A DNA stretch of 63,040 nucleotides. Source: Candidatus Heimdallarchaeota archaeon (lineage in GTDB: Archaea; Asgardarchaeota; Heimdallarchaeia; JABLTI01). Positions 20,173 to 36,224 of the stretch are shown piece after piece. The translations under genes were made by a program, and so were the position numbers. The stretch lies in contig JAHLVW010000057.1 in assembly GCA_019058275.1 (NCBI GenBank), forward strand, positions 1-63,040, in the 5' to 3' direction. The first letter of the stretch is position 1, and every line of letters begins with the position of its first letter. Below the pieces are notes generated by a model that saw only the letters and a list, made by a program, of their open reading frames with translations, did not search any database and was not told the origin of the DNA.

Positions 20173-20221
20173 TTTTAAAGAGAAAAAGAGAGAAAAAAAA
20201 TAGTATTCAAATTTTAATCCT

Positions 20222-20249
20222 AGGCCCGTAGCGCAGTCTGGACAGCGCG
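20222..20249 (+). tRNA. Isolated 5' fragment of a tRNA-Arg-like gene (acceptor 5' strand + D arm only)
   Basis: AGGCCCG-TA-GCGC-AGTCTGGACA-GCGC-G; A20 typical of Arg; AGGCCCG pairs with CGGGCCT at 33865-33871. Confidence 0.8.
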
Positions 20250-20288
20250 ATAATAATGACTATACTTTATTGCAAACTTCTAACTGAT

Positions 20289-21980
20289 TTAAATATTGAC
20301 AATTTTCTTACTAAGATATTGTTCCTTTAATTTTGCACAATACTTGTGCGTTGCTATCAAATCCTTAGTAATCCTGTTATTTTCGATTTCTATAATTCGA
20401 CTATTAGGAATTATTGATACTAAATCATGAGTAACTGCAAGAACAGATGCATTAGTGCTCATTACATATTCAGCAAGAAGATTTATTATTTTACGTTTGT
20501 TCAGTTCATCTAAGTTAGCAGTAGGTTCATCAATTAACATAATCTTGGGAGATAAGAGTAATCCCAAAAGAATTGATGCTCTTTTCTTTTCTCCTTGGGA
20601 GTAATTCTCTACAAGCTGATTCTTAATGTCATCCAATGAGAGATATTGTAATAAATAATTCAAACTATAGAAATTCTGATGTTCTTCTTTTTTATTAGTT
20701 GAAAAATAATTGATATTTTCAATAAGATTCATGGAAGGATACAAGTTTATATATTGTGAGGAGTAATACACTGATTGAGATCTCAATTTTTCAATTAATG
20801 AGAGATTAGATGGTCGGATTTCTTCACCAAGAATATTAATATATCCTGTAAAGTCCAAATCAATGCCTGATATAAGATTCAAAAGTGTTGTTTTCCCAGT
20901 ACCAGATGGACCAATTAGAAATACTAATTCACCAGGATATAATTGAAAATCTATATTTTGTAAAATTAATTCTTTACTTGGGGAATAATAGAATTTTGTT
21001 AAGTCTTTGCACTCTAAAATACTTATCTCACTTTTATTTCGTTTTCTTGGTTGATATTTTGGGATTTCTATTTGGGAAATTTCTTTTACTTCAAAACTTT
21101 CTGGTGATTCAGGATTTTCAAGATAGATTTTTTTCGTTGTGTGATCAACAATAAATTTCACTTTTTTCTTCAGTGATAAAAGGTCTTTGATTTGGTTTGG
21201 GAGGAATAAGTAAGAAAAACTATCAATATGAGAAACAAACATTTCAGATGTAAGGGGTTTATCCTTTTCACTTACCTCTGGCAAATCTTCTTGAGCATAA
21301 ATGGCTCCTAGTCTACCATTAAAAATTAGAAACGATTCAGAGACCACAGAAAAGTAAATGGGATCATGGCTAACAACAATAACGGTAGTTTTTTCCTCTT
21401 GATTTATTTTTTTAAGAAGATCCAAGATAATTTTAGAGTTCTTTTTATCAAGTTGACCAGTAGGTTCATCAGCCAATAATATTGGTGGAGAGTTTACGAG
21501 GGAAATTGCTAAACTAACTCGCATACTTTCTCCCATTGAAAGCTGCTTTGCTCTTCTGAGAGAGAGATGTTTGATTTCCATTTTTTCAAGTATTTCATCA
21601 ACTTGTTTTTTTGATTCTTCCAAGCTCCTACCAATAAGTCTTGTTGGTACCATTAGATTCCGTTCAACAGTTAAATCAGGAAATAGATTATAATGCGGTA
21701 TTTGATTAAGGAATCCAATTTTTTGTAAACGAAAATTGTATAATTCTTTCTTAGACATTAAATCAATGTCTTGAGAAAGAACATTCACTTTACCACTGGT
21801 TGGTTGTTCTAAACCACTAATCATTCTCATGAGTGTAGATTTCCCAGCACCACTAGGTCCAATAATTGAAACAAAACTACCACTCTTAACATCTAAATCA
21901 CAACCACTTAAGGCAACAATGGAACGACCTAATTCAGGATTTGGATAAATTTTAGTTACTGCCTCTAGATTAATCATCAT
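20289..21980 (-). CDS. ABC transporter ATP-binding protein with two LolD/MacB-type NBDs and an AbrB-like linker
   Basis: GPSGAGKS/LSMGE/LADEPTGQLD and GPSGTGKT/YSQGE/LIDEPTANLD. Confidence 0.9.
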   Translation of the reverse strand: MMINLEAVTKIYPNPELGRSIVALSGCDLDVKSGSFVSIIGPSGAGKSTLMRMISGLEQPTSGKVNVLSQDIDLMSKKELYNFRLQKIGFLNQIPHYNLFPDLTVERNLMVPTRLIGRSLEESKKQVDEILEKMEIKHLSLRRAKQLSMGESMRVSLAISLVNSPPILLADEPTGQLDKKNSKIILDLLKKINQEEKTTVIVVSHDPIYFSVVSESFLIFNGRLGAIYAQEDLPEVSEKDKPLTSEMFVSHIDSFSYLFLPNQIKDLLSLKKKVKFIVDHTTKKIYLENPESPESFEVKEISQIEIPKYQPRKRNKSEISILECKDLTKFYYSPSKELILQNIDFQLYPGELVFLIGPSGTGKTTLLNLISGIDLDFTGYINILGEEIRPSNLSLIEKLRSQSVYYSSQYINLYPSMNLIENINYFSTNKKEEHQNFYSLNYLLQYLSLDDIKNQLVENYSQGEKKRASILLGLLLSPKIMLIDEPTANLDELNKRKIINLLAEYVMSTNASVLAVTHDLVSIIPNSRIIEIENNRITKDLIATHKYCAKLKEQYLSKKIVNI

Positions 21981-23278
21981 GTACCCTCCATAATTGATGG
22001 TTGAAACTCAAAGAATTTCTTCTGATAAAAATGTCTAATGAGAATGTCAACACCTATTAGAGCCACTAATATGACTGACAAATAGAGTGAAAACTGGGAG
22101 TAATAAGGAACTTTCAGAATCCAATTCTCTGCTTTAATTAGAACTCTAAGAAGATAAACAAGAGAACCAATTCCAGCTCTACAACTAATTGGAAGAATTA
22201 GAAGTAAAACAAATAAATACTCAAAAAGGAAATTACTTGAAATAGTCTTAACTGAAAATCCTCGATAACGTAAAACCAGTATCCTTTCTCGTCGAGTATT
22301 AAGCATATCTTGTACTAGAACAATACCTACAATGAAAAATGAAATACCTACAAAAACACCTGTTGTAATAGATAGTGCTATGATACTTGTAGCAAAAGTT
22401 GGCAAGTAATCTGGATAAACATCGATCCAAGTTGTATGTATAATTGAATAAGGTGTTGATTGTAATGCTTGTAAAAATGTTTGCATTTCTGATTGTTTGT
22501 TGAGTTTAATGATAATAGCTTCCTCTAATGATACAATTGAAATATCTTCATTATGTTGAAGAATTACTTGAAAAGCTGATTCAGTCATGACCAGAAAAGG
22601 AATAGAGTTTTTTTCGAAATGATATGTTGAAAGTTGATAGTCATTCAATAATAGTGGGAAAAGATGAAACTTATCAAAAACTTTGAATTCTTGTTCAATG
22701 AATTGCTCATCATCAGCTGAAATGTTGTTAAAGCCCAATACAATGCTATTGCTTTCTGAACCATAGACAATTCTACTATTAAGAAACACATCCTCTGATT
22801 GAGTAAGAATAGAATTTGGAGTATCGCTGAATTCCTCTAAACCATCTTTTACAATTCCCAAATCATAATCCTTGGAATAAGAGATTGTAGATCCAAAGGT
22901 TTGCGAGATAACTAATACCTGATAATCAATGTCAAAAATTGATAACTGAACAAGAGAATAATTTGCAGCAGATTGGACAGAAGGAATCCCTGACATATCT
23001 GAAAGTAAAGATGAAGTGTTAGAAGGATTTTCTAATTGGATAGCAACATCTAAACCCAGATCAAATTTAGCTGAGTTAGTAGCATGTTGTGATAAATAAG
23101 CTGGAACTAGAAATGATTGAATAAAGAGAAGAAATGAAAGGGTTATGAAAAAGGATTGCTTCTTATGATGTTGAAAAGCAAGAGAAAGATTATGTAGGAT
23201 AATCGAGAATTTTTTAGTACCTTTTTTCCAGAGAGAATGAGATAACTTAACTATTTGTTTCAATAACGAATTAATCAA
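21977..23278 (-). CDS. FtsX/MacB-like ABC permease, probably N-terminally truncated
   Basis: RRERILVLRYRGFS...FLFEY motif, TM-ectodomain-3TM layout. Confidence 0.75.
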   Translation of the reverse strand: MINSLLKQIVKLSHSLWKKGTKKFSIILHNLSLAFQHHKKQSFFITLSFLLFIQSFLVPAYLSQHATNSAKFDLGLDVAIQLENPSNTSSLLSDMSGIPSVQSAANYSLVQLSIFDIDYQVLVISQTFGSTISYSKDYDLGIVKDGLEEFSDTPNSILTQSEDVFLNSRIVYGSESNSIVLGFNNISADDEQFIEQEFKVFDKFHLFPLLLNDYQLSTYHFEKNSIPFLVMTESAFQVILQHNEDISIVSLEEAIIIKLNKQSEMQTFLQALQSTPYSIIHTTWIDVYPDYLPTFATSIIALSITTGVFVGISFFIVGIVLVQDMLNTRRERILVLRYRGFSVKTISSNFLFEYLFVLLLILPISCRAGIGSLVYLLRVLIKAENWILKVPYYSQFSLYLSVILVALIGVDILIRHFYQKKFFEFQPSIMEGT

Positions 23279-24261
23279 AATAAAGAGTAAACATCAACTG
23301 ACTTTCTCCACCGGTTCTTACTTTTGGTTACATTTTTACCATCGATATACACTATTCGATTAAGGAATATATCACGTTCTTTTGCTAATTGAACTAATGA
23401 ATCGTAATACTCACTTTTAACAATACTAGTAAATTCAGAATCAATATGTATTTGTCTAATGGTCTTAGGATTAACTGTTATTGCTTGTTTTATATACTCA
23501 ATAACATCATCATGATTGAGATGAGCTTTTATTTTAGCAATTTCATATAGTGTTCGTAAATTCGTTGGTTGTAAATCATTTAATTTAACCCAATAACGTA
23601 ATGCACAAGGAAAATCTTTTTCCTTTTGAGTATTTTCAGCAAGTGAAACTAATACATCACAATCTTCAGAATCAATTCCAAATAATTTTTCTAACAGTTC
23701 TAAACCTTTCTGATAAAAACCCATTTCGAAATATTTCATGCCAATATGCTTTAGAGCTGGAGGGAAATCTGGTTTTATTGCCAATATTTGAGAATAAAAT
23801 TCATCTGCCTTACTAAATTCACCAAATTTCCAAAAATAATCACCTAATCTAACTAAAGTAATATCATCCTTTGGATTAATTTTCAATATTTTATACCAAA
23901 GATCTAGTGCATTAAGTGGTTGATTTGATTCCATGAAAGTAAGAGCAATATTATATAATGCTCGAGTATCATTTGGATTTAATTCCAAAACTCTATGCCA
24001 AGATCTTAAAGCTTGTTCTTTTCTATCTAAACGACTGTATGCTACTCCTAAATTTAACCAGTATTCAGATTCTTTAGAATTCAATTTTATAGCTCGAAGA
24101 AAATGATTTTTTCCTACAGTTATTCTGCCATCAGTCGAATACCATAATCCAAGTTGATTGTGTGAATCATCATCATCAGGATATGTTTTAACAGTTCGCT
24201 GGAAGTCATAAATTCTTTTTCGAATAAGTTCTTTTCTAGGATCATAAAACATGTTAAACAC
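23275..24261 (-). CDS. Tetratricopeptide-repeat protein (possibly C-terminally truncated)
   Basis: Repeated W.NLG.AY...A....LELNP.D TPR consensus. Confidence 0.88.
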   Translation of the reverse strand: MFNMFYDPRKELIRKRIYDFQRTVKTYPDDDDSHNQLGLWYSTDGRITVGKNHFLRAIKLNSKESEYWLNLGVAYSRLDRKEQALRSWHRVLELNPNDTRALYNIALTFMESNQPLNALDLWYKILKINPKDDITLVRLGDYFWKFGEFSKADEFYSQILAIKPDFPPALKHIGMKYFEMGFYQKGLELLEKLFGIDSEDCDVLVSLAENTQKEKDFPCALRYWVKLNDLQPTNLRTLYEIAKIKAHLNHDDVIEYIKQAITVNPKTIRQIHIDSEFTSIVKSEYYDSLVQLAKERDIFLNRIVYIDGKNVTKSKNRWRKSVDVYSLF

Positions 24262-24382
24262 TCAAAGATACTCTCAAATCTTTTCTTAATAAATTACTAA
24301 TTTAGCTTTTTCATGGAAAAATAACTTTTCTTTACTTGAGTAAGTATTTCAGCAGGTACTTGATTTTCTTTAAAATTTGTCT

Positions 24383-24994
24383 TTACATTTCCTTATACCC
24401 AATGATTCTTACTTTGTTTTGACCAATTAATCGTTTTAATTCGGTTTCAATATCATACGAATCCGCTATTGTTTCATTAATTAATTCTTCTCGCAATTTT
24501 TCTTCTTCTTTTTCTGTTAATTTAAGGTATTTTCTCTCTCTTATCCATTCTTCCTCTATCTCTCTTATTTCTTCCTCTATTTGTTCATTTTCTTGTATCA
24601 AATTGATGATATCTTTTGTTTTCTCTCTTTCCTTATAATTCGCATCATTATAATATTGCCACAATCTATCAACTAAGATATGTTCTTTATTAATCATGTA
24701 TTTTCTTTTCTGATGTTTCAGTACGCCTTCCTTCACTACTCTTTGCAATTTTTCTATTAATCTACTTCTCTTAAGAGGTATTTTTTTCTGTAATTCTACT
24801 AGTGAATATTTCTTTGTATATCCTTTCTCTATTTTTTCTGTTAGAAGCAATTTTATAATTTGGTATGCGAATTCTCCTTCATGTACAGTAATTCTTAGTA
24901 GATTTTTGGTTATCCTTCCTTGATCTTTTATTGAGATTTTTGTTAATCTTTCCAAATCATTAGCTATTGTTTCCTTTCCTATTTCTTCACTCAT
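24383..24994 (-). CDS. Winged-helix / coiled-coil hypothetical protein in the Cas1 operon
   Basis: YSLVELQKKIPLKRSRLIEKLQRVVKEGVL wHTH pattern; E-rich coil. Confidence 0.6.
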   Translation of the reverse strand: MSEEIGKETIANDLERLTKISIKDQGRITKNLLRITVHEGEFAYQIIKLLLTEKIEKGYTKKYSLVELQKKIPLKRSRLIEKLQRVVKEGVLKHQKRKYMINKEHILVDRLWQYYNDANYKEREKTKDIINLIQENEQIEEEIREIEEEWIRERKYLKLTEKEEEKLREELINETIADSYDIETELKRLIGQNKVRIIGYKEM

Positions 24995-25000
24995 TTACCT

Positions 25001-26860
25001 TCATCCTTCCTTTAATGCTAACGGTTTAAATCCTATTTCGTTATGGTAATTTCTTAATTCTTTAACAAACTGGTCTTTTTCTTTTCTATCTAATAATCCC
25101 CATACTCCTTCTCTTATAATTGCCCAAGGTTGAAATGTCACCCCATGATGTTTTATTTCATAGTTGTTACTTTTTATTATGAGATCATTCAACCAATACT
25201 TTCCTTCTAAATAATAGTCATTTATTTTGCTCCTTCCTGTTTTACCATTCATTTTACTGTTTAATGCTTCTTTCACGATTTGTTCTAATTGTTCATTAAG
25301 TTCAGATTGTGGATATACAAAAAACACTTTTTGCCTTCTTCTACCATATTTATATTGTACTTGATTAGGAATTATTTCTTCATTCACTAATGCTTCTATT
25401 AGGAAAGGCAAAACTACAAGTTTAATTGGTTCAGACATATCTAAGTGAAGTCCAAACACCCCTCCCTTTGTTTTTCCATGACATATTCCTGGTAATCCAT
25501 CCCAACAAAAATTAATTTTTGTGCAATATTCTTTCACATAATCTCTCGCTTTGTCATAAACACCATTTATTAGTGTATCAATCGCTGAATAAGAAAAGTG
25601 TAACCCGTATGGTTTGAAATTATCCTGCATTAATCGAGCTGACCCTCTGCCTGGAAAGTATATTCCTATTTTCTCGAAAAAGGCTGCTAATGTCCACCAC
25701 ATATTCTTTGCAGCATCTCTGTCTAGATCGTTCCACTCACTTGGAGTTATTGATGTTTTTCTATTTAATTCTTGTATTTTTGTTTCAATCAGTGTTAAAG
25801 TAGATTTCAATTTCTCTTTATCGAGATGATGAGATATTCTTTGAAGGATTGTTCTTCTGCTTACTAATGTTGCTAAACAAAATTCTTTATTAGCAATCTT
25901 TGTTTCCCGTAGTATATTTAGTATTCCAACTTGCTGTTTTATTGGTGGTGGGCTTTTAATTTTCTCTCCGCCAAAAATCACATGAATTTTTTTATACCCT
26001 TTTGATGGCAAAACATCTAAAAGATAATCATAATCCGATTTTTTTCTAGCAACGATATATTCTAGAGTTGTGAGTTTTCCTACCCAGTTACAAACAACTA
26101 ATGTTTTTGTATTGAAATTGAGTATACAAGATTTAAGATCAGGTATAACAATACCGTGTTTTGTACCAACATATGGGACAATAGTGGAGAAGATGCCTGA
26201 TGCTTTGTAGAAATGTTCCCTATAGACATCCCCTTTTTCTTCTGCATAAATCACTCGAAAGAGATTTTCTTTTTCCTTAAACACAAGTTTGATAATTGAC
26301 TCACAATTTATGCAACGTATAACAGAGCTTCCAAGTTTCGCGATAAATCCATTGCCTATGGGAAGTTCTTCGCCACAAAATTTACAGTGATAACTTGTTT
26401 TGTATCCTGTTTTTGTTCTTGTTACTTTTCTTGTTTCATCCAAAAAATCTTGAAATTTCTTTCTTTCCCAATTTGTTTTTCGATCTATGAACCATTGACA
26501 AGCTATCGTATCATGATCCAGCTTCTTCATTACTCGTCGTGGTTCTTCGATGTATCCTGCATCTGCAAGTTCTTCATAAAAAATACAAGTATCGATAGTA
26601 CTTTTGTTATGACAATTCTTACATTTTTTTCCAATAAATTCAGGCCAAGTATTTTTAGATAATTTATAAAATGCTATTCTTCCCTTAAACCAAACAACTT
26701 CTTTTTTATCAACTCGCTTCTCTTTTTCAAGAATTTTAATGTTTTTAGCAACAAATGCATTCGAACATCCTAATTGGTTCTCAATATTCTTGACAGTTAT
26801 GGGGTATACCCCTGTGTGGTTACTAATTAGTGTTAAGATTTTTTCTTGGATTTCATTCAA
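25001..26860 (-). CDS. cas1: Highly diverged stand-alone Cas1 homolog (casposase/Asgard Cas1-like) with N-terminal wHTH and Zn fingers
   Basis: C-terminal Cas1 motif series LDRDAAKNMW...FPGR...IDTLINGVY...GLPGICH...LHLDMSEPIK; N-terminal HTH, CKNC, CKFC, CINC. Confidence 0.75.
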   Translation of the reverse strand: MNEIQEKILTLISNHTGVYPITVKNIENQLGCSNAFVAKNIKILEKEKRVDKKEVVWFKGRIAFYKLSKNTWPEFIGKKCKNCHNKSTIDTCIFYEELADAGYIEEPRRVMKKLDHDTIACQWFIDRKTNWERKKFQDFLDETRKVTRTKTGYKTSYHCKFCGEELPIGNGFIAKLGSSVIRCINCESIIKLVFKEKENLFRVIYAEEKGDVYREHFYKASGIFSTIVPYVGTKHGIVIPDLKSCILNFNTKTLVVCNWVGKLTTLEYIVARKKSDYDYLLDVLPSKGYKKIHVIFGGEKIKSPPPIKQQVGILNILRETKIANKEFCLATLVSRRTILQRISHHLDKEKLKSTLTLIETKIQELNRKTSITPSEWNDLDRDAAKNMWWTLAAFFEKIGIYFPGRGSARLMQDNFKPYGLHFSYSAIDTLINGVYDKARDYVKEYCTKINFCWDGLPGICHGKTKGGVFGLHLDMSEPIKLVVLPFLIEALVNEEIIPNQVQYKYGRRRQKVFFVYPQSELNEQLEQIVKEALNSKMNGKTGRSKINDYYLEGKYWLNDLIIKSNNYEIKHHGVTFQPWAIIREGVWGLLDRKEKDQFVKELRNYHNEIGFKPLALKEG

Positions 26861-26880
26861 GACAAAATCCCCTTACATTA

Positions 26881-27618
26881 TTATTTGTGAATTAATTTCA
26901 AATTTCTCTTTGAATGATTTATAATTAAATCCAGCTCTTCTTTAGATGGAACATATGGATTAATTATCTCATCCGAATTCACCTCTCCAACTGATTCATC
27001 GTCGTTTTCAAATTCACAGTATTTCTCATACATCTTATCCCTAAATGATACGATTTCAGTTTTTATGATGTCTTCAATTGGAGAATTCACATTGGCATAC
27101 GTTCTTTCTGTTAGTATCTTACTAACCAAATCATTCAAATCAGCATCTGTAATATTTTCTAATATAATTTCAATTCTTTTTTCTTCCATCTTTTTCTTTT
27201 GTATTTTTTCTCGAAGATTTTGTTTCTCGTGTTTTAATTGTTGGCTTAATTGTAGAAGATCTTTTTTTCTTTCATTTATTGTTTGTGAGCTATAAAAATC
27301 ATCACATAAAATAGCTAGTCTTGGATATAATTCATCATCAGATAAAGTATGTTTTACCCATACTTTCTTCTGAACTTTTTTTGTTTCGATCAAACTTTTT
27401 TCTTGTAATGATTTTAGTGCTTTAACTACTGATTTCTCATGTCTTCCTATATTATGAGCTAATTTCTTTAATCCACCAGTGAACCATTCATCCATTCCTT
27501 TGATAATTCTCCATAGAAAATAATAGATTATGTTTTGTTCAACTTTGGTTAACAATAAAATTTGGTAAGACATTTTGCTTATTCCTAGTTGTTTTGTACT
27601 AATCATATTCTTTGACAA
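26881..27618 (-). CDS. Winged-helix DNA-binding protein with coiled coil
   Basis: LKKLAHNIGRHEKSVVKALKSLQEKSLIE. Confidence 0.7.
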   Translation of the reverse strand: MSKNMISTKQLGISKMSYQILLLTKVEQNIIYYFLWRIIKGMDEWFTGGLKKLAHNIGRHEKSVVKALKSLQEKSLIETKKVQKKVWVKHTLSDDELYPRLAILCDDFYSSQTINERKKDLLQLSQQLKHEKQNLREKIQKKKMEEKRIEIILENITDADLNDLVSKILTERTYANVNSPIEDIIKTEIVSFRDKMYEKYCEFENDDESVGEVNSDEIINPYVPSKEELDLIINHSKRNLKLIHK

Positions 27619-28441
27619 AATCTTTTATAAAAAGCTAAAAACGGTTTTTTTGACGCTTAAATATAAAATAACCGTTAACCATTTGAGAATATTGTTGGAA
27701 GAAGGTTTCACTATAAGTAAAACAGAATTTATTGCATACTTGCATTGTTCATTTAAATTTTACATATTAAAGGAACTTAATAACGATGCGAAATCGGGAG
27801 CTACTTGGATAACTGATCTTACTGATCATAGACCAGATATACAAGAAGGTTTGAAATGGCATCAATGGTTTAATGATTTTTATAATAAATATGGAGAAGA
27901 TATACGTAATGGTGTTTATCCAATTATTAACGGAAAAGATGAAATTTTAAAAAAGAAATTCATCGATTTAGAGATAAAACGTTATAATAATTCTCCGCAG
28001 TTTTGGGAGCCTATTGGAACAGAGTTTATGCTTAATGATAATTATCTCAAAGGAAAAATTGATCGTATTGATAAAGTAAATGAACAAGGTCATTGTCGAA
28101 TTATTGAATATAAAAAGAATCCAGGGTTTTTTGATAAAGAAGAATTATTATTTTATACATTATTATTATCTAATACTCTTCCACACCCGGGGTTACCTGG
28201 AATCATACAAGTAACTCAGATAGGGACCTATTATTATAATATCGGAGAATTCAATATTGATAGTATTAGTCTTAATGAAAGACAAAAGTTTGAGCAATTT
28301 TTGCATAATATTCGGAAAGAAATGCTACAACCTAATCTAGCTAAAAATCAAAATTGTAATTTTAAACGTACAAATTGCTTATATCATGAAATTTGTCGTA
28401 GAATAAGGATAGAAAAAACAGATATTTTATCGGACTTCTAA
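27575..28441 (+). CDS. Cas4/AddB-like PD-(D/E)XK nuclease with 4-Cys Fe-S motif (true start probably TTG at 27683-27695)
   Basis: ISKTEFIAYLHC...GLKWH...LKGKIDRIDK...IIEYKK...C-terminal C-x6-C-x5-C. Confidence 0.8.
   Translation: MLIPSCFVLIIFFDKIFYKKLKTVFLTLKYKITVNHLRILLEEGFTISKTEFIAYLHCSFKFYILKELNNDAKSGATWITDLTDHRPDIQEGLKWHQWFNDFYNKYGEDIRNGVYPIINGKDEILKKKFIDLEIKRYNNSPQFWEPIGTEFMLNDNYLKGKIDRIDKVNEQGHCRIIEYKKNPGFFDKEELLFYTLLLSNTLPHPGLPGIIQVTQIGTYYYNIGEFNIDSISLNERQKFEQFLHNIRKEMLQPNLAKNQNCNFKRTNCLYHEICRRIRIEKTDILSDF
27622..27676. promoter_or_regulatory. Divergent promoter of the Cas1/Cas4 module with inverted repeat AACGGTT...AACCGTT
   Basis: TATA-like TTTTATAA and TTAAATATA; inverted half-sites at 27640-27646 and 27670-27676. 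Confidence 0.45.
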
Positions 28442-28551
28442 GGTTTGACGAATTTTTCATACAAACTATAACATGATTAAATGTTTTTCATAAAGATAAA
28501 AAATCGGACTTTGTTGGTTTTTCTACCAATAAAGATATTTTATCGGACTTT
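28420..28551 (+). repeat. Three direct repeats (T)AAAGATA(TTTT/AAAAA)ATCGGACTT
   Basis: Copies at 28420-28437, 28491-28512 and 28530-28551. Confidence 0.7.
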
Positions 28552-28681
28552 CGAAAAAGTTAGCAAGGTTAAGAATGTGAAAAAATCGATCTAGGAGTGT
28601 AAGAAAAGGAAAAAAGTGGTGGAAACACCTCCCTCATATATTATAAGGTTCTTTGTAGAGCTTTCTAAAGCAAAATCACAA

Positions 28682-30358
28682 TCACTTGAGTAGCTCATTT
28701 TTCCATTTTTTCCGTAAAAGTGTAAATTGCTCAGCATTGATGATTTGTTCTTCTGGTTGATACATAATAAATGTTCTAAGATATTTTGCCAAAAGGTGAT
28801 TAACGAATCTAACTCCTTTTACAAGTGTAGCAAAATTATCATAGAATAATTGAGAAACTTCTTGACCATTATCACAAATATTGACATATTTTTCACGTGG
28901 TTCGAGATAAGGTAGAAGCTCAAGCAATTTGGAAGTAGGTTGTAATGGCAATTTAAGAGGTTTAGAAGTTGAAATTTGAAATGTTATATGTTTATAATGC
29001 TCTGCTAAAATTTGCATAACGGAAGAATTTTGTTCAAGATTAGTATTAACAATTTTTTGAAAAAGCGTTATTGGAGTTGCATGCTTATTTTTCTCATAAT
29101 TGGAATAACTGCTTTGAGAAAGCTGTAATAATTTTCGCATTTCAGTATAACTTCGATTATTACGAATAGATATGAGATAATCATCTAATCCTAAAACCGT
29201 TATACCTATGAGTTTTGTAAAGTCAAAATAACCATCAGAGGTGAGAGTTTGGTTATTAATTCCTTTGAATTTGGTAGAATATCTTCTGCGTTGAATTAAC
29301 TGATAAAAATCTTGCATTTTCTTGGGATTTAAAACACCAATCAAATTTGCATAAGCACTTGTATATTTAATCGGTAAAGAAATTAAATAAGGGCCAGAAT
29401 TTAACTGGGTTTTTTTTGTTTTAATATTATATTCCTGCAAATAGTGTTGAAAATCCTCAATATATTTTTCACTCGCACTACAAAAATTAATTCCTTTCTT
29501 AAAAGAGCCATCTGCATCCATAGCACCACGCCAGTATAGACTCCGGAAAGGTTCGCCGAAGTGCTTGAAAAGTAAGGGTTCTCGAAGGGAATCATATTTA
29601 GCACCTTGAATAGTGTGGTCTGTTAAAAAATTGAATAAACAGACAGCAGAAGAGGATCTGAGTTCGATATTCCATGCATTACCTGTTTTGAAAACTCGAC
29701 CAGCATCAGAAAACACTGAATCAAATAGTTTTGATAATAGCATAATATGTTCTTTCGTTTCATCAACAACTCGCAACCAATGTCTATGAAGATGACCATC
29801 ACCATTAATGACACCACAAAGATAAGCTAATTTTGGGGAAAGTACAATCGGGATAGAATAACGTTTTCCTCGAGCACTTTCAAAATACAAATACTCCGGA
29901 AAAGTAGCAGGAATTCCAATGTGAGCCCAAGCACAACGAACTAAAGGAAATGGCATAGCACCACGATTAATATAATATCGAATTGCAATGCGCCACTCAA
30001 GAATGCTCTTATTAACTGACTTGTAAAAATAGTTTCGAGCAACCTCAGAGATAAGAAGATCTTTCTCCTTAATTCGGTGTTTTTCTTCGTCTGTTAAAAC
30101 AAGGAAAGGGAACCGAGAAAGAATGCGATCGCTTGTTTTTTTCCTTACAAAATCAATACGATGAACAAGAATAGGAAACAGGTTTAAGGTTAAGGAATCC
30201 TGATCAAGGAAGATTTTATCAATCTGGTTTTTTTCAACTAACTTATTAGCAGTAATCCAATGAGGAAAATTAGTGCAATCTTTATCGTAAAGCAAGGGAT
30301 CTGTAGACCAATGAAGAGGATCCAGCATAGTAATACTCCTACAAGTAATAGTTCTCAA
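28682..30358 (-). CDS. Free-standing double-motif LAGLIDADG endonuclease fused to XRE-type HTH
   Basis: LAYLCGVINGDGH and LYWRGAMDADGS; RSYTEMRKLLQLSQSSYSNYEKNKHATP HTH; no intein ends; start probably near 30328. Confidence 0.8.
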   Translation of the reverse strand: MRTITCRSITMLDPLHWSTDPLLYDKDCTNFPHWITANKLVEKNQIDKIFLDQDSLTLNLFPILVHRIDFVRKKTSDRILSRFPFLVLTDEEKHRIKEKDLLISEVARNYFYKSVNKSILEWRIAIRYYINRGAMPFPLVRCAWAHIGIPATFPEYLYFESARGKRYSIPIVLSPKLAYLCGVINGDGHLHRHWLRVVDETKEHIMLLSKLFDSVFSDAGRVFKTGNAWNIELRSSSAVCLFNFLTDHTIQGAKYDSLREPLLFKHFGEPFRSLYWRGAMDADGSFKKGINFCSASEKYIEDFQHYLQEYNIKTKKTQLNSGPYLISLPIKYTSAYANLIGVLNPKKMQDFYQLIQRRRYSTKFKGINNQTLTSDGYFDFTKLIGITVLGLDDYLISIRNNRSYTEMRKLLQLSQSSYSNYEKNKHATPITLFQKIVNTNLEQNSSVMQILAEHYKHITFQISTSKPLKLPLQPTSKLLELLPYLEPREKYVNICDNGQEVSQLFYDNFATLVKGVRFVNHLLAKYLRTFIMYQPEEQIINAEQFTLLRKKWKNELLK

Positions 30359-30500
30359 GAATATTCATAAATTCTGCTTTGAAAAACTGTACAAGTAACT
30401 AATTTTTCAACTAATTAATTAAGCTAATGATTAATACTTTCAGTGACCACTATAAATAATAACTATATAATGAGCTAAATATATTACTATACGAGATAAA

Positions 30501-32675
30501 ATGGAAATTAAAAAAATAAATCCTTCAAGGAAAATACTTTATCAAGCTAAGAAACCAAAAAGAGGAACGTTTTATCAAATTTATACAAATGGTACTTTAG
30601 AGTTTATGGGAGGAATAACTACTAAAAATCAAATTCATATTTCAAATGATATAAGAAAATGGAAAAGATTACCTAGTGAAAAGAATAAAGATTCACTTAT
30701 TGTAAAGGTGACTTACTATTTTATTAACTGTTTAGAAGAAGAAGAACAGATTTCATGTCAATCAGAAATTATTCATAATGGTTATGGAATATATTTACAA
30801 CCGTTGAATACAGATTTGAATTATACAAAGATATTAGCAAAATTAAAAGAAAGAAAAATAACTTCTTGTAGTATTCCAGGAATGATAAATGGTAAAGAAC
30901 AGCTAGAATCAACAGAATATTTTATCAAAAGCTCTAATTTAAGAGAAAAATGTGAAATTCCAGCAATTGAGAACCTTATTCCATTAGTAAATGGGGGGTA
31001 TCAAGAGTCAGAATTTTCTATATATAAAAGTAAAACCGAACAAATTTATATCAAACAAATAGGGAGGATAGATCATTGGGGACAATTTCGCTTATCAGCT
31101 GACTTGTTCAGATATTTCCAAGATTGGGAGGAAATACCCAATTTCGTTTGTTCAAAAGAGCAAGCTGAAGAATATTTTATACCATCAAGTGTGCATAAAC
31201 GAAAAACTGGCAAGAGAACCAAGAACCTTAATTTTCCGATTTATGAAGAACCACAAAGAATAGAAGTTCTTTTTACTAATCCATCATTAACTCTAACTAA
31301 TGAAGCAAAAAAAACAATTAATTTTAAAAAACAATTAATTAAAAATAATTTTCCGATAATTTCTTTAAAAATAAATGCAAGAACAAAAGAGACACATATT
31401 GACAAGAATTTTGAGAGAAAATGTATAGAAATTTTCCAAAAATTGAACAAAAAAATACCTAAAGCAACATTAGCAACAGAAGTTGACCTATTTATTGATT
31501 CTAATTATAATACTACAGGTAATAAGAAATGTTTTGATATAGTCTTTTATGTACCGCTATTTAATAGTGAAATGACATTAATACTCTCCGAAATCCGTAC
31601 TAGTCAAAAACATTCTAAGTATCTAAATACTAGCGGAATAGCAGAACTTTTTCATGTAAAAAATATTATACAAAGCCATTATTTTATACCAAACATTTTC
31701 TTAAATAGAGAATTATTCAACCCGCATAATATCGATGTTACAAGGTTATTTAGTCATACAATAGGTATACCCATTATTAATAAAAAATCTATAATGCAAT
31801 ATTATATTGAACCACTAAGATTATTGACGTATTTATCAAATTTTAAAGGAAAAGAAAAACAAACTACATCATCCAACAAAATGATTCATCCATTTACTCA
31901 TTCTTTAGTAGATAATAATGACTATTATGCTCAAGCATTTGATATTTTACAACTAAAAGATCAAAAACAGACATGTAACTCATTCAAACATTATTTGTTA
32001 TTTATGGGGATAAGAGAAAAAGAGTTTTCATTAATTGGAAGAGAATATATCACTAAACAGGAAATTACTTCAATCATCCGGTACTTAAAACAACAAAGAA
32101 AAACTAGGCTGTCAACAGAAGAAAAAGGAGCTTTATTATTAATACATAATTTATTAATAAAGCAAAATTCTTTTGCTTATCTAAGCTCATTAGAAAAAAA
32201 AGAGAGAAATAATGATATAGACCTGCTTCTAAAAAATAAAAAATTAATTGAAAAATCATTACCAATAAATGTAAAGTTATTAGGTTTTCATAAATCAAAT
32301 AGCAAAGGGGGAAATTTTGAAAGAGAAATTAGGAGAAATTATGAAGATTTCGGATATGAAGTAATATCAAACTTGCTTATTTCATGTGGGGGACAGCTAT
32401 TCGAAATAGATAATCTGGTTATTAGTAAAACTGGTTTAAGAATAATAAGCTGTAAAGATCATTCCCAATATACACCTTATGATATTTTAGTAAATCATAT
32501 TCGGAATTATGCAAACATCTTAGAATTAAATAATTTTCTACTAGGAAACCAAAAGGCAATTTTATACATCAAAGTAAGAAAAGAGTATGCTAACCAATTG
32601 AAAGAAAAATACGAAATAGAAGATTGGACAAAAAATGTCCAGATAAAAATTTTAAAAGCCAAATTAAGTGTCTGA
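30501..32675 (+). CDS. Large protein with two PD-(D/E)XK restriction-like domains and AbrB-like N-terminal motifs
   Basis: FERKC...FDIVF...SEIRTS and GGNFEREI...GYEV...EIDNL...ISCKD; GRIDHWGQFRLS. Confidence 0.6.
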   Translation: MEIKKINPSRKILYQAKKPKRGTFYQIYTNGTLEFMGGITTKNQIHISNDIRKWKRLPSEKNKDSLIVKVTYYFINCLEEEEQISCQSEIIHNGYGIYLQPLNTDLNYTKILAKLKERKITSCSIPGMINGKEQLESTEYFIKSSNLREKCEIPAIENLIPLVNGGYQESEFSIYKSKTEQIYIKQIGRIDHWGQFRLSADLFRYFQDWEEIPNFVCSKEQAEEYFIPSSVHKRKTGKRTKNLNFPIYEEPQRIEVLFTNPSLTLTNEAKKTINFKKQLIKNNFPIISLKINARTKETHIDKNFERKCIEIFQKLNKKIPKATLATEVDLFIDSNYNTTGNKKCFDIVFYVPLFNSEMTLILSEIRTSQKHSKYLNTSGIAELFHVKNIIQSHYFIPNIFLNRELFNPHNIDVTRLFSHTIGIPIINKKSIMQYYIEPLRLLTYLSNFKGKEKQTTSSNKMIHPFTHSLVDNNDYYAQAFDILQLKDQKQTCNSFKHYLLFMGIREKEFSLIGREYITKQEITSIIRYLKQQRKTRLSTEEKGALLLIHNLLIKQNSFAYLSSLEKKERNNDIDLLLKNKKLIEKSLPINVKLLGFHKSNSKGGNFEREIRRNYEDFGYEVISNLLISCGGQLFEIDNLVISKTGLRIISCKDHSQYTPYDILVNHIRNYANILELNNFLLGNQKAILYIKVRKEYANQLKEKYEIEDWTKNVQIKILKAKLSV

Positions 32676-32683
32676 AAAGTAAA

Positions 32684-32822
32684 TGGCGAGTCTGGAGGGA
32701 TTTGTTCCAACAGAAGTCGCAATTTCTGTAGATTGAACCCTCGGCCTGCTACAACTCCCGAATTTGCCTTAGCAAAATTCGTTTAGAAGGCAGCCGCGCT
32801 GTCCTAGCTGCGCCACAGACTC
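32684..32822 (-). tRNA. tRNA-Arg(UCU) with a 30-nt anticodon-loop intron (~32753-32783) and a 31-nt T-loop intron at 58/59 (32702-32732); CCA encoded
   Basis: GAGTCTG/CAGACTC acceptor stem, GCGC D-stem, GCTGC/GTAGC anticodon stem, CT-TCT-A loop, GAGGG-TTCAA[intron]AT-CCCTC; removing both introns gives a 78-nt cloverleaf. Confidence 0.92.
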
Positions 32823-33107
32823 ATCATTTTGTATTTGCTTTTTCTAGGTTTTAGTTTAAAATTGTTACTATTATAAGCGGAATTTGTTTCATTTAGAAAG
32901 TAATTAAATATTATGTCTATTAAATATAAAAGTTAAAGATTCAATAATTAGGGGTGGAGGGGTAATTTTCGCTTGGATAAATCCCATCAGATTAATATTT
33001 TGTTCTTCAAATTAGTACCTTTATTTATTATATTCCGACTTAGAGAATTTTGGTGTTTTTAATAAAAAATACTCAAAGTAAGATAAGGAGAATAACTTGA
33101 TGAAAAA

Positions 33108-33830
33108 GTGAGAAAGATGAAAAGCGAAAGAACAAAATTACAAGAGAATGAGAACTATCGAGGAGTTTTTTCTGGAACTTTTAAAAGATTCGGAGAGAAA
33201 AGAGGATACAATGGATATCCTGAAACAACGGTTTTGCTGGTGAATATACAAGATAGAGACGGGACTATTGTAGGTGACCACCTTTGGTTTAATTACACTA
33301 AAGGATTCAAAGAATTAGGTGAACTAAAAGTTGGTGACATAATTCAATTTGATGCAAGAGTGAAGAAGTACTACAAAGGTTATCAAGGATATCGTGAAGA
33401 TGTTCCTAGAAGTCAGAAACGGGATTACAAACTAAGTCATCCAACAAAGATGTCTATTATTGGAATTAATTATGACTTTCTTGAAGAATTAAAGAAAAAG
33501 CAAGAACTTGAAGAACAACGTGAAAAATATGAAGCACTTAATAAAAAGATCTATAGATATTTGATAAGTAAGTTCTTGGTTAAAAATAAAAGTAATGTGT
33601 CTTGTCATTTAGTTTACATACTTAGTAAGAAAGAAATCTGTTATACCGTTGTGGATTACAATGGAGAATTAGAATCCTTGTCAAGTGATGAACTTGATGA
33701 GTTACTTCTTAGAATTAAAAATAAGATAAGAAGTGTGATTGTTGGTTTTGATATAATAAGTTTCAAAACAGATTGGTTTTTTGATAAAAAAAGGAGAAAG
33801 AAGTTGCTATTTAGGTTATCTTTACACTAG
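33108..33830 (+). CDS. Conserved hypothetical protein of phage/mobile-element type (possible OB fold)
   Basis: F.GTFKRFG.K...TVLL.NI...DHLWF..TKGF...GD.IQFDARVKKY.KGY...DYKLSHPTK pattern. Confidence 0.6.
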   Translation: MRKMKSERTKLQENENYRGVFSGTFKRFGEKRGYNGYPETTVLLVNIQDRDGTIVGDHLWFNYTKGFKELGELKVGDIIQFDARVKKYYKGYQGYREDVPRSQKRDYKLSHPTKMSIIGINYDFLEELKKKQELEEQREKYEALNKKIYRYLISKFLVKNKSNVSCHLVYILSKKEICYTVVDYNGELESLSSDELDELLLRIKNKIRSVIVGFDIISFKTDWFFDKKRRKKLLFRLSLH

Positions 33831-33842
33831 AACCTTCCTAGA

Positions 33843-33875
33843 AGGTCGTGGGTTCAAATCCCACCGGGCCTGCCA
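33843..33875 (+). repeat. tRNA 3' fragment R1 (variable loop, T arm, acceptor 3' strand, G, CCA)
   Basis: AGGTC-GTGGG-TTCAAAT-CCCAC-CGGGCCT-G-CCA. Confidence 0.88.
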
Positions 33876-34513: not shown

Positions 34514-34514
34514 A

Positions 34515-34922: not shown

Positions 34923-34937
34923 AGGAAATCTTTTTTT

Positions 34938-34956
34938 GGTCCTGGGTTCAAATCCC
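34938..34956 (+). repeat. tRNA T-arm fragment R2
   Basis: GGTCCTGGGTTCAAATCCC. Confidence 0.75.
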
Positions 34957-35393: not shown

Positions 35394-35398
35394 AATTG

Positions 35399-35832: not shown

Positions 35833-35835
35833 TTC

Positions 35836-36222: not shown

Positions 36223-36224
36223 TG

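What the first reader, a model, noticed from the sequence alone, without database searches (positions are those of the whole stretch)
20222..33875. tRNA-Arg-like gene in two pieces 13.6 kb apart, bracketing the nuclease/Cas1 region
Seen: the 5' piece AGGCCCG...D arm stops exactly after position 26 (20249). The 3' piece at 33843-33875 has CGGGCCT-G-CCA, perfectly complementary to it and on the same strand. In front of the 3' piece is a hairpin CTAG-AACCTTC-CTAG with central CCT (Arg), but its loop is non-canonical (no U33, no purine 37). Known: ordinary tRNA integration leaves one intact gene plus a 3' duplicate, and here no intact copy remains. Inference: either an insertion destroyed the tRNA at the D-arm/anticodon-arm junction, or this is a split or giant-intron tRNA whose middle piece lies elsewhere. 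I found no convincing complementary leaders or BHB motif joining the halves.
Basis: partly seen in the sequence, partly recalled or inferred. Interest (0 to 1): 0.72.

Follow-up and report, generated by a model that had tools for sequence, protein, structure and literature searches.

The report
Broken tRNA-Arg gene with island-borne replacement
The two pieces are the remains of this archaeon's native tRNA-Arg(UCU) gene, whose anticodon arm was replaced by a 13.6-kb genomic island, and that island carries an intact two-intron tRNA-Arg(UCU) that now does the job, so this is a destroyed and replaced gene and not a split tRNA.

Summary
Window 20222-20249 is tRNA positions 1-26 and 33843-33875 is positions 44-76 plus CCA. 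Both are single-copy, and both junctions recur in independent public assemblies, one a 2.26-Mb contig.

Four species of the same genus carry an intact, one-intron tRNA-Arg(UCU) behind the same promoter. The pieces are therefore the native gene with its anticodon arm replaced by an island.

The split-tRNA reading fails on three counts. No usable anticodon arm exists. The trailer and leader are not complementary. An intact two-intron tRNA-Arg(UCU), missed by ARAGORN and Rfam, lies inside the island on the minus strand (32822-32684). It is the only such gene in the assembly, where AGA makes up 53% of Arg codons.

The same architecture recurs at the tRNA-Arg(GCG) locus on contig C73: a 5' stub, a NERD-type nuclease gene convergent with a complete foreign tRNA, then a 3' stub. 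A partial version occurs at a tRNA-Met locus in another genus.

No tyrosine integrase, PolB, terminal inverted repeats or target-site duplication were found. The insertion mechanism is inferred, not shown.

Closest precedents are the Caldiarchaeum tRNA-Thr 5' fragment and pTN3-type 5'-half integration. I class this as a new variant of a known kind, of moderate interest.

The parts
20153..20221 (+). Native promoter and leader of the broken tRNA-Arg(UCU) gene (core TTCTCACCGTAAGTATTTTAAAGAG...)
   Evidence: The core is conserved in front of the intact genes of G005, G007, G009 and G010 and in the three broken alleles (alignment A2).
20222..20249 (+). 5' stub of the native tRNA-Arg(UCU): acceptor 5' strand, D arm and position 26
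   Evidence: Positions 1-25 are identical to the intact gene of G007. Homology ends after position 26, where relatives continue with CCTGC-CTTCTAA.
20250..20253 (+). Left junction, ATA(A/G), the first bases of inserted DNA
   Evidence: ATAG follows the stub in G004 (both A and B') and in GCA_019058195.1, and ATAA follows it here. Beyond these bases G000 and G004 differ completely.
20289..24261 (-). Variable cargo: ABC ATPase, FtsX-like permease and a TPR protein
   Evidence: Pfam. This segment is absent from G004, which has 120 bp here, and is longer in GCA_019058195.1.
24299..28641 (.). Cas1-like module: a 203-aa protein, a 619-aa HTH/Cas1-like protein, an HTH protein and a PD-(D/E)XK (Cas4-like) nuclease
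   Evidence: Pfam. The module is 96% identical in G004. It is syntenic in G007:C20 and G004:C217, where it lies beside the 3' end of a tRNA-Val.
28682..30358 (-). 558-aa LAGLIDADG/HTH protein, one of more than 20 paralogs in the genome
   Evidence: Pfam and tblastn.
30501..32675 (+). 724-aa NERD-type (PD-(D/E)XK) nuclease-like protein, ending 8 nt from the 3' end of the intact tRNA
   Evidence: Pfam NERD. The C-terminal part resembles restriction-endonuclease folds in the Atlas search. The same convergent pairing with a tRNA-Arg(GCG) is seen on C73, in G004 and in G006.
32684..32822 (-). Intact replacement tRNA-Arg(UCU). Exons 32822-32784, 32753-32733 and 32701-32684. Introns at 37/38 (30 nt) and in the T loop at 58/59 (about 31 nt)
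   Evidence: The spliced sequence is called tRNA-Arg(tct) with a canonical cloverleaf by ARAGORN. It is the only tRNA-Arg(UCU) found in the assembly.
32823..32880 (-). Promoter of the replacement tRNA (..TTTTAAACTAAAACCTAGAAAAAG..)
   Evidence: It is homologous to the promoter of the intact two-intron tRNA of G004 and differs from the native promoter at 20153.
33108..33830 (+). 240-aa ORF of unknown function that ends inside the hairpin
   Evidence: Real homologs exist in public data. There are no Pfam, NCBIfam or PHROG matches.
33826..33842 (+). Pseudo anticodon-arm hairpin ACTAG-AACCTTC-CTAGA (alternatively ACCTTC-CTA-GAAGGT)
   Evidence: ARAGORN accepts the joined pieces as Arg(cct), but the loop lacks U33 and R37. 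CCTTCCTAGAAGG resembles CCTTCTAAGAAGG, which is the anticodon loop plus the start of the intron in intact relatives.
33843..33875 (+). 3' stub of the native tRNA-Arg(UCU): positions 44-76 plus CCA, the first of four tandem 3'-end repeats
   Evidence: It is identical to G007 from position 45.
34937..36641 (+). Three further, progressively degenerate tRNA 3'-end repeats (34937, 35800, 36609) separated by toxin-antitoxin-like cassettes
   Evidence: the repeat finder family D1 and Pfam. Similar arrays occur in G004:C166, G007 and G010.

Best explanation
The two pieces are the stubs of the organism's native, single-copy tRNA-Arg(UCU) gene. The organism is a Heimdallarchaeota MAG. DNA was inserted at the boundary between the D arm and the anticodon arm. 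As a result the anticodon arm and its intron (positions 27-43) are gone. They are replaced by a composite island of 13.6 kb here, 20.8 kb in another strain and at least 8.4 kb in G004.

The stubs cannot give a working tRNA. AGA decoding is provided by a complete, foreign tRNA-Arg(UCU) carried inside the island. This gene has its own promoter and two introns, lies in inverted orientation, and ends 8 nt from a NERD-type nuclease gene. The host therefore now depends on the island for its most used arginine codon.

The right-hand boundary of the 3' stub (about position 45) coincides with the core of a separate system that stacks small toxin-antitoxin cassettes at the tRNA 3' end.

Shown: the disruption, the replacement gene, the recurrence at other loci, and the absence of split-tRNA features.

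Inferred: the insertion was a site-directed event made by island-encoded nuclease or recombination proteins rather than by a classical tyrosine integrase. The island has since been remodelled by cassette exchange at the left junction and by inversion of the tRNA-bearing segment relative to G004.
For: Orthology and empty site:
- G005, G007, G009 and G010 have an intact one-intron tRNA-Arg(UCU) behind the same promoter.
- Flanking synteny resumes at window position about 37851.

Reality of the junctions:
- Both are reproduced in G004, in two Mb-scale NCBI assemblies and in Logan contigs.

Replacement:
- The intact two-intron tRNA-Arg(UCU) at 32822-32684 splices to a canonical cloverleaf.
- No other tRNA-Arg(UCU) is in the assembly.
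- AGA is 52.6% of Arg codons.
- This promoter-plus-gene type was found only in the two genomes with the broken native gene, G000 and G004, among 61 genomes searched.

Recurrence:
- On C73 the native tRNA-Arg(GCG) is cut after about position 23-25 and resumes at about 45. Relatives G007, G008 and G010 have it intact.
- Between those stubs a NERD-like gene lies convergent with a complete G006-like tRNA-Arg(GCG), 2 nt apart.
- G002 has an independent cut with the same inserted end.
- G004 has a second tRNA-Arg(UCU) stub cut after position 26.
- G063, in another genus, has a tRNA-Met 5' stub, a NERD-like gene and a complete, different tRNA-Met.

Against a split tRNA:
- There is no trailer/leader complementarity.
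- The trailers differ between strains.
Against: - No recombinase that could explain the event was identified. There is no tyrosine integrase on the contig, and no terminal inverted repeats or target-site duplication at the ends.
- The event is a replacement of about 48 bp, not a clean insertion. One conservative recombination step does not produce that.
- The replacement tRNA lies in opposite orientation in G000 and G004, and G004 shows 5' stubs on both sides. The history is therefore multi-step and not reconstructed.
- The promoter and 5' stub show no substitutions among three strains, while the 30-nt leader between them has 5-6. This leaves room for a retained function of the stub.
- The assembly is 92.8% complete, so another tRNA-Arg(UCU) in unassembled DNA cannot be excluded.
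Confidence: 0.85

Rival explanations
1. Selfish tRNA-replacement (homing or addiction) module. An island nuclease, either the NERD-type or the LAGLIDADG/HTH protein, cuts the resident cognate tRNA gene in or near the anticodon arm. The break is repaired by copying or capturing the island. The island brings a sequence-variant, intron-interrupted and therefore immune copy of the same tRNA. Loss of the island would then be lethal.
For: - The anticodon arm is lost in the same way at two Arg loci, with cuts at about 23-26 and about 45.
- A NERD-like gene lies 2-8 nt from a complete foreign tRNA-Arg at both loci and in G006.
- Eight of 20 NERD-like loci lie next to a tRNA.
- The island holds three nuclease-type genes and no integrase.
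- The replacement genes differ from the broken ones in the D arm and anticodon stem and carry an extra T-loop intron.
- Wu et al. 2022 proposed a co-opted homing-endonuclease homolog for an element next to tRNA-Arg(TCT) in Heimdallarchaeum (PMC8813620).
Against: - No cleavage specificity is known for either nuclease.
- The bases just before the junction differ among the three GCG stubs, which does not fit simple co-conversion from one donor.
- Island divergence between G000 and G004 (96%) equals flank divergence (95%). This suggests vertical inheritance, not recent spread.
- Twelve of 20 NERD-like genes have no tRNA nearby.
- The orientation of the tRNA relative to the stubs varies.
Confidence: 0.2
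2. Ordinary site-specific integrations on both sides of the gene, followed by rearrangement. One element targets the 5' half, as with pTN3 or in Caldiarchaeum, and leaves the orphan 5' stub. Other elements target the 3' end and leave the orphan 3' stubs. The functional gene between them was later inverted or replaced by recombination between elements.
For: - Orphan 5' fragments ending at about position 24-27 next to a mobile element and a two-intron tRNA are described in Caldiarchaeum (PMC3293823).
- pTN3-like integrases use the 5' half of tRNA genes, and tRNA-Arg(TCT) is a frequent archaeal target (PMC8371274).
- In G004 the intact tRNA lies downstream of the stub in direct orientation with an element-type promoter, as this model predicts.
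- The 3' stubs all start at about position 45, as expected for a 3'-end att core.
Against: - The intact genes are coherent foreign genes with perfectly matching acceptor strands that differ from both stubs. They are not hybrids of element 5' part and host 3' part.
- No tyrosine recombinase was detected in the island.
- The model needs an independent inversion at both Arg loci to explain the convergent arrangement.
Confidence: 0.3
3. Functional split or tri-split tRNA. The 5' stub and the 3' stub are transcribed separately and trans-spliced, possibly with a third piece, as in Nanoarchaeum or Caldivirga.
For: - The 5' stub keeps an intact promoter and shows 0 differences in 68 nt among three strains, while the leader varies.
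- The joined pieces plus the hairpin are accepted by ARAGORN as a cloverleaf.
- A CTTCTAA heptamer lies 25 nt after the stub.
Against: - There is no complementary trailer/leader and no BHB.
- The trailers are unrelated between G000 and G004.
- The hairpin loop lacks U33 and R37.
- The CTTCTAA motif is common, with 23 copies in 25 kb, runs into the ABC ATPase gene and is absent in G004.
- An intact tRNA-Arg(UCU) exists.
- The GCG stubs at the sister locus have decayed D stems.
- General flank divergence is only 2-5%, so the zero differences in the stub are weak evidence.
Confidence: 0.04
4. Assembly artefact: a chimeric contig joins unrelated tRNA fragments.
For: The genome is a MAG of 118 contigs with 6.8% estimated contamination. 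tRNA islands are repeat-rich.
Against: Both junctions are reproduced base for base in independent assemblies, including one 2.26-Mb contig that holds both. The left junction is also in a different species-level genome, G004.
Confidence: 0.01

Closest known systems
tRNA-Thr(GGU) 5' fragment (tRNA-Thr-F) plus insertion sequence plus two-intron tRNA-Thr-II in Caldiarchaeum subterraneum (Sugahara et al. 2012, PMC3293823)
   Same: An orphan 5' tRNA fragment ends at the D-arm/anticodon-arm boundary (positions 1-27 there, 1-26 here). It keeps its upstream flank and lies next to mobile DNA, and the working gene has one more intron than the ancestral one. In both cases there is population or strain heterogeneity at the locus.
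   Different: In Caldiarchaeum the working gene is a hybrid whose 3' part is the original host sequence, the insert is 1.9 kb, and the gene is reconstituted. Here the anticodon arm is lost and a 3' stub is also left. The working gene is a complete foreign copy with different acceptor strands, inverted, inside a 13.6-kb composite island.
Integration into the 5' half of tRNA genes by pTN3-like (SSV-type) tyrosine integrases of Thermococcales (Cossu et al. 2017, as reviewed in PMC8371274)
   Same: The target lies in the 5' half of a tRNA gene. The working tRNA afterwards is expressed from an element-borne promoter. tRNA-Arg(TCT) is a favoured archaeal target.
   Different: [quoted passage not shown] Here no such gene was found and the original gene is not restored.
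Split and tri-split tRNA genes of Nanoarchaeum equitans and Caldivirga maquilingensis
   Same: tRNA pieces lie kilobases apart on the same strand, and the 5' piece ends near position 25/26, as at one Caldivirga split site.
   Different: Known split tRNAs have complementary flanking sequences that form a BHB, together cover every tRNA position, and have no intact gene copy. None of these three features holds here.
HeimM2 and HeimV2 elements next to tRNA-Arg(TCT) in Ca. Heimdallarchaeum (Wu et al. 2022, PMC8813620)
   Same: The phylum is the same, the tRNA species is the same integration hot spot, and the element contains a homing-endonuclease (LAGLIDADG-type) homolog that the authors proposed had been co-opted for site-specific integration.
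   Different: [quoted passage not shown] The passages read do not report a broken tRNA or a replacement copy.
Casposons (Cas1 casposase, PolB, terminal inverted repeats, target-site duplication; some target tRNA 3' ends)
   Same: A Cas1-like gene lies inside a tRNA-associated island.
   Different: There is no PolB and no terminal inverted repeats or target-site duplication. The Cas1 match is weak (E = 6e-5). In relatives the same module lies beside an intact tRNA-Val, or beside a degenerate tRNA-Val 3' piece.

Membership tests
Split (trans-spliced) archaeal tRNA | The pieces together supply all tRNA positions, including a canonical anticodon loop | tested here: not met
   Positions 27-43 are absent. 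The only candidate, the hairpin at 33826-33842, has the loop AACCTTC without U33 or R37. The orthologue in relatives is UCU, not CCU.
Split (trans-spliced) archaeal tRNA | A complementary 3' trailer and 5' leader that form a helix with a BHB motif | tested here: not met
   The best duplex is -16.6 kcal/mol, against a shuffle mean of -17.0 and a genomic control mean of -20.8. The trailers are unrelated in G004.
Split (trans-spliced) archaeal tRNA | No contiguous gene for the same tRNA in the genome | tested here: not met
   An intact tRNA-Arg(UCU) lies at 32822-32684.
Split (trans-spliced) archaeal tRNA | A joined mature tRNA is detectable | not testable with these tools
   This needs tRNA-seq or a Northern blot.
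tRNA-targeting integrative element with a tyrosine recombinase | An integrase gene within the element | tested here: not met
   PF00589 has no match on contig C48 and six matches elsewhere in the genome. No integrase family appears in Pfam, NCBIfam or PHROG scans of the island ORFs. Very divergent folds are not excluded.
tRNA-targeting integrative element with a tyrosine recombinase | Conservative recombination reconstitutes an intact copy of the target tRNA at one end | tested here: not met
   Neither junction carries a complete AGGCCCG-type gene.
tRNA-targeting integrative element with a tyrosine recombinase | Direct repeats of the att core at both ends | tested here: inconclusive
   3'-end repeats exist to the right (33843 to 36609), but nothing is shared between the left junction at 20250 and the right junction at 33842.
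Casposon | Cas1 casposase together with a family B DNA polymerase | tested here: not met
   There is only a weak Cas1 match (E = 5.9e-5) and no PolB among the island ORFs.
Casposon | Terminal inverted repeats and a target-site duplication | tested here: not met
   The repeat finder shows no inverted repeats at 20250 and 33842, and the target sequence is lost rather than duplicated.
Orphan 5' tRNA fragment left by integration into the 5' half (Caldiarchaeum or pTN3 type) | A 5' fragment with the native upstream flank that ends near position 24-27 | tested here: met
   Positions 1-26 lie behind the native promoter. The GCG stubs end at about 23-25.
Orphan 5' tRNA fragment left by integration into the 5' half (Caldiarchaeum or pTN3 type) | The working gene at the far end is a hybrid of element 5' part and host 3' part, in direct orientation | tested here: not met
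   The working gene is inverted in G000. Its acceptor strands (GAGTCTG/CAGACTC) match each other and not the stubs (AGGCCCG/CGGGCCT).

The most novel reading that the evidence does not exclude
A mobile 'tRNA-replacement' module in Heimdallarchaeota. A NERD-type (PD-(D/E)XK) nuclease gene sits tail-to-tail with a complete, sequence-variant and intron-armoured tRNA gene. The module destroys the resident cognate tRNA gene by removing its anticodon arm and substitutes its own copy. The host then depends on the island for an essential codon. This would be a toxin-antidote or homing-like strategy based on a tRNA.
Probability: 0.2. Interest if true: 0.8.

Novelty: new variant of a known kind. Interest (0 to 1): 0.5.

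Why it matters
tRNA genes are the classic landing sites of mobile elements because conservative recombination restores them. Here the target gene is not restored.

An essential single-copy tRNA, which reads 53% of arginine codons, has been destroyed, and its function has passed to a foreign copy inside the island. The same pattern is seen at a second arginine tRNA locus, and a partial version at a methionine tRNA locus in another genus.

If this is a directed process, it would be a new way for a genomic island to make itself indispensable. It would also be a concrete route by which archaeal tRNA genes gain introns and become fragmented, a long-debated question (Randau and Söll; Sugahara and colleagues).

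There is a practical point for annotation. ARAGORN and Rfam missed the working two-intron gene. Anyone relying on them would wrongly conclude that this Asgard genome lacks tRNA-Arg(UCU) or uses a split tRNA.

Tried and rejected
- ARAGORN and Rfam on the window found nothing. ARAGORN with introns found no Arg tRNA genome-wide. I therefore used pattern scans and a home-made acceptor and D-arm finder.
- Search for a third, anticodon-bearing piece. The many TCTAG/CTTCTAA-type hits are chance matches in AT-rich coding DNA. The CTTCTAA 25 nt after the stub, with a GCAAA/TTTGC stem, was rejected. The motif occurs 23 times in 25 kb, 8 of the 23 have a stem by chance, the region runs into the ABC ATPase gene, and G004 lacks it.
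- Trailer/leader duplex: no better than shuffles.
- Terminal inverted repeats or target-site duplication at the island ends: none.
- Casposon reading: rejected, with no PolB, repeats or duplication.
- SSV-type partitioned integrase: no ORF reads through either stub.
- A degenerate extra 3' repeat at about 32970 is not significant, since 28% of control windows score as high.
- Inversion or homologous recombination between two tRNA genes or two element copies was worked through on paper. It gives only intact hybrids or 5'...3' flanks, not the observed arrangement.
- Selection on the 5' stub: there are 0 differences in 68 nt against 5-6 in the 30-nt leader. General flank divergence is only 2-5%, so no claim is made.
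- A scan of metagenome contigs for the left junction gave 0 hits.
- The Mb-scale NCBI records could not be searched as whole genomes.
- PDB sequence searches and the Atlas search gave no usable function for the LAGLIDADG/HTH, Cas1-like or NERD-like proteins beyond the nuclease domains.

Full report
**1. The observation**

Window 20222-20249 reads AGGCCCG-TA-GCGC-AGTCTGGACA-GCGC-G. That is the acceptor 5' strand, the D arm and position 26 of a tRNA, followed by unrelated AT-rich DNA. Window 33843-33875 reads AGGTC-GTGGG-TTCAAAT-CCCAC-CGGGCCT-G-CCA on the same strand, and its acceptor strand is exactly complementary. Each piece is unique in the 4.12-Mb genome. ARAGORN and Rfam see no tRNA anywhere in the window. 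The window is the whole of contig C48 of a 118-contig, 32% G+C MAG. An identical protein in a sister assembly is labelled Candidatus Heimdallarchaeota archaeon.

**2. What the pieces are**

A search of 60 relatives with the 5' piece found close matches only in the same genus.
- In G005, G007, G009 and G010 the match is the start of an intact tRNA-Arg(UCU) with one intron at 37/38. It sits behind the same conserved promoter, TTCTCACCGTAAGTATTTTAAAGAG... (alignment A2).
- Our 5' piece is identical to G007 through position 25, and our 3' piece is identical from position 45.
- Homology stops after position 26 and restarts at 44/45. The anticodon arm and its intron, about 48 bp, are missing.
- Upstream synteny runs up to the stub, and downstream synteny with relatives resumes at about 37851.

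The pieces are therefore the native tRNA-Arg(UCU) gene. The anticodon is UCU, not the CCU suggested by the hairpin.

**3. Not an artefact**

- The left junction GCGCG|ATA(G/A) is present in G004 contig C364, in a Logan contig of SRR14803106 and in GCA_019058195.1.
- The right junction, including the hairpin, is present in GCA_019058195.1, GCA_050009915.1 and a Logan contig (SRR14803106).
- In GCA_019058195.1 both junctions lie on one 2.26-Mb contig, 20.8 kb apart.

**4. An intact tRNA-Arg(UCU) lies inside the interval**

A BLAST match of window 32783-32816 to the tRNA of G009 led to a complete gene on the minus strand at 32822-32684. It has acceptor GAGUCUG/CAGACUC, anticodon loop CUUCUAA, discriminator G and an encoded CCA. 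It is interrupted by a 30-nt intron at 37/38 and an intron of about 31 nt in the T loop at 58/59. With the introns removed, ARAGORN calls a canonical tRNA-Arg(tct).

It is the only tRNA-Arg(UCU) found in the assembly. The CCU, UCG and GCG isoacceptors lie elsewhere. AGA is 52.6% of arginine codons in 1,596 long ORFs.

G004 carries a homologous gene, 73% identical over the promoter plus the gene, with the same two intron positions. Among 61 genomes, this promoter-plus-gene type was found only in G000 and G004, the two genomes with the broken native gene. Its exons resemble the native allele of another species, G006, but its promoter does not. I read it as an acquired replacement.

**5. Test of the split-tRNA idea**

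- The best duplex between the 81-nt trailer and the 84-nt leader is -16.6 kcal/mol. Shuffles average -17.0 and random genomic pairs -20.8.
- After the shared ATA, the trailers of G000 and G004 are unrelated.
- The hairpin ACTAG-AACCTTC-CTAGA lets ARAGORN call the joined pieces tRNA-Arg(cct), but its loop lacks U33 and a purine at 37.
- Part of the hairpin, CCTTCCTAGAAGG, resembles CCTTCTAAGAAGG. That sequence is the anticodon loop plus the first intron bases of the intact relatives. The hairpin may therefore be a remnant with an internal deletion rather than an anticodon arm.
- No intact tRNA-Arg(UCU) lies elsewhere in the genome. Candidates for a third piece were common chance matches with no tRNA context.

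I put a functional split tRNA at about 4%.

**6. What lies between the pieces**

- An ABC ATPase, an FtsX-like permease and a TPR protein (20289-24261).
- A module of a 203-aa protein, a 619-aa HTH/Cas1-like protein (weak Cas1 match, E = 6e-5), an HTH protein and a PD-(D/E)XK nuclease (24383-28441).
- A 558-aa LAGLIDADG/HTH protein (28682-30358).
- A 724-aa NERD-type nuclease-like protein (30501-32675).
- The replacement tRNA and its promoter.
- A 240-aa ORF of unknown function that ends inside the hairpin.

There is no PolB. There is no tyrosine integrase: PF00589 gives six matches in the genome and none on this contig. There are no terminal inverted repeats or target-site duplication.

The island is composite and variable.
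- G004 has 120 bp where G000 has the 4-kb ABC segment. GCA_019058195.1 has a longer version.
- The Cas1 module is 96% identical between G000 and G004, which is similar to the flanks (95%).
- In G007:C20 and G004:C217 a 45-47% identical Cas1 module lies beside the 3' end of a tRNA-Val. That module is thus an ordinary tRNA-associated element and is not tied to the break.
- The LAGLIDADG/HTH gene has more than 20 paralogs and the NERD-like gene has six.

**7. The right side**

The 3' stub is the first of four co-oriented 3'-end repeats, at 33843, 34937, 35800 and 36609. They are separated by toxin-antitoxin-like cassettes of 0.8-1.1 kb. Similar arrays follow tRNA genes in G004, G007 and G010. The restart of homology at about position 45 is therefore most simply the core of this 3'-end cassette system.

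**8. The pattern recurs**

- On contig C73 the native tRNA-Arg(GCG) is present only as stubs. Relatives G007, G008 and G010 have it intact behind the promoter AACTAAAACCTATAG.
  - The 5' stub is cut after about position 23-25.
  - The 3' stub restarts at about position 45.
  - A second, more decayed 5' stub lies 1.5 kb upstream.
- Between the C73 stubs lie cargo genes, a NERD-like gene and a complete G006-like tRNA-Arg(GCG). That tRNA is convergent with the NERD-like gene and 2 nt from it.
- G006 has the same NERD-like/tRNA pair.
- G002 has an independently cut GCG stub joined to the same inserted end, CTCTTTTAGTT.
- G004 has a second tRNA-Arg(UCU) stub, B', also cut after position 26 and followed by ATAG. 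Here it is next to a MazE-like gene and a TnpB gene.
- In G063, from another genus, a tRNA-Met 5' stub (positions 1-38 plus intron) is followed by a NERD-like gene and then a complete, different tRNA-Met.
- Across the class, 8 of 20 NERD-like loci lie next to a tRNA.
- The exact UCU junction was found only in G000 and G004 among 83 genomes, and not in the metagenome contigs scanned.

**9. Mechanism**

Shown:
- The native gene is broken at the D-arm/anticodon-arm boundary.
- Its anticodon arm is gone.
- A complete foreign cognate tRNA is supplied from within the island.
- This has happened at more than one tRNA locus.

Inferred:
- The break is site-directed. Several junctions fall at the same place: A, B', and the GCG stubs of C73 and G002.
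- It was not made by a recognisable tyrosine integrase.

I weigh two routes.
- (a) Conventional integrations into the 5' half and the 3' end, followed by rearrangement. Precedents are the Caldiarchaeum tRNA-Thr-F case, where a 5' fragment (1-27) lies next to a 1.9-kb element and a two-intron tRNA (PMC3293823), and pTN3-like integrases, which use the 5' half and leave the gene under an element promoter (PMC8371274). The G004 arrangement fits this route. The working genes, however, are coherent foreign genes and not hybrids, and the convergent orientation at both Arg loci would need extra inversions.
- (b) A nuclease-driven replacement, in which the NERD-type or LAGLIDADG/HTH protein cuts the resident gene and the island, with its immune tRNA copy, fills the gap. 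This fits the gene content and the tight nuclease/tRNA pairing, and it echoes the proposal for HeimM2 next to tRNA-Arg(TCT) (PMC8813620). It is untested. The equal divergence of island and flanks also argues against recent spread.

I give (a) about 0.3 and (b) about 0.2. The rest goes to histories I cannot reconstruct.

**10. An open point**

Among the three broken alleles the promoter core (40 nt) and the stub (28 nt) show no differences. The 30-nt leader between them shows 5-6 per pair. General flank divergence is only 2-5%, so this does not prove selection on the stub, but the hypervariable leader is unexplained.

**11. Verdict**

- The 'insertion destroyed the gene' reading is supported.
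- The split-tRNA reading is not supported.
- The statement that no intact copy remains is wrong.

The finding is a new variant of known tRNA-targeted island biology. Its unusual twist is that the target is destroyed and replaced, which is worth a bench test.

Noticed in passing
window 33843-36641: There are four tandem tRNA-Arg 3'-end repeats with one toxin-antitoxin-like pair per interval (MNT/HEPN-like, MazE-like, DUF433/DUF5615-PIN). The last two cassettes share a segment of about 106 bp in front of the repeat (35687-35792 and 36496-36602). Similar decaying arrays follow tRNA genes in G004:C166, G007:C184 and G010:C21.
   Followed up: partly
window 32702-32732 (minus strand): The T-loop intron of the replacement tRNA interrupts GGTTCAA|ATCC, the core shared by the 3'-end repeats. 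This would make the working gene a poor target for the cassette system. Related T-loop introns (..TTGCGACTTC..) occur in the G004 tRNA-Arg(UCU) and in a tRNA-Pro-like gene of G007:C132.
   Followed up: partly
window 28682-30358 and more than 20 other contigs of G000: The 558-aa LAGLIDADG/HTH protein is a multi-copy family with 30-50% identity between copies. Many copies lie at contig ends or near tRNA genes, which suggests a free-standing selfish nuclease or a transposase-like role.
   Followed up: partly
G000 contig C73 28336-35366 (locus L054): This is a second destroyed-and-replaced tRNA locus, for Arg-GCG. It has two 5' stubs, a NERD-like gene, an inverted intact gene, an extra orphan 3' piece (positions 39-76, acceptor CACGTCC) directly upstream of the intact gene's promoter, and the native 3' stub.
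   Followed up: yes
L017 (G004:C364) 965-3190: A second tRNA-Arg(UCU) 5' stub with a host-type promoter faces the intact two-intron gene across a MazE-like gene and a TnpB (IS605 OrfB) gene. The 3' end of the TnpB gene abuts the tRNA 3' end. The G004 island is thus flanked by 5' stubs on both sides, which I could not explain.
   Followed up: partly
window 19337-20152: The 248-aa ORF directly upstream of the tRNA promoter is absent from G004 at this position, as an 816-bp indel. It has no family match.
   Followed up: no
whole genome G000: Standard tools find only 24-36 tRNAs. Many genes have one to three introns at non-canonical positions, for example Ile, Tyr and Cys on C61, C101 and C1. About ten orphan tRNA 3' ends are scattered over the contigs (C19, C33, C53, C58, C73, C108).
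   Followed up: partly
window 20192-20221 and the homologous leaders in GCA_019058195.1 and G004: The 30-nt leader between the conserved promoter and the 5' stub differs at 5-6 positions per pair. The sequences on both sides are identical, and the flanks differ by only 2-5%.
   Followed up: partly
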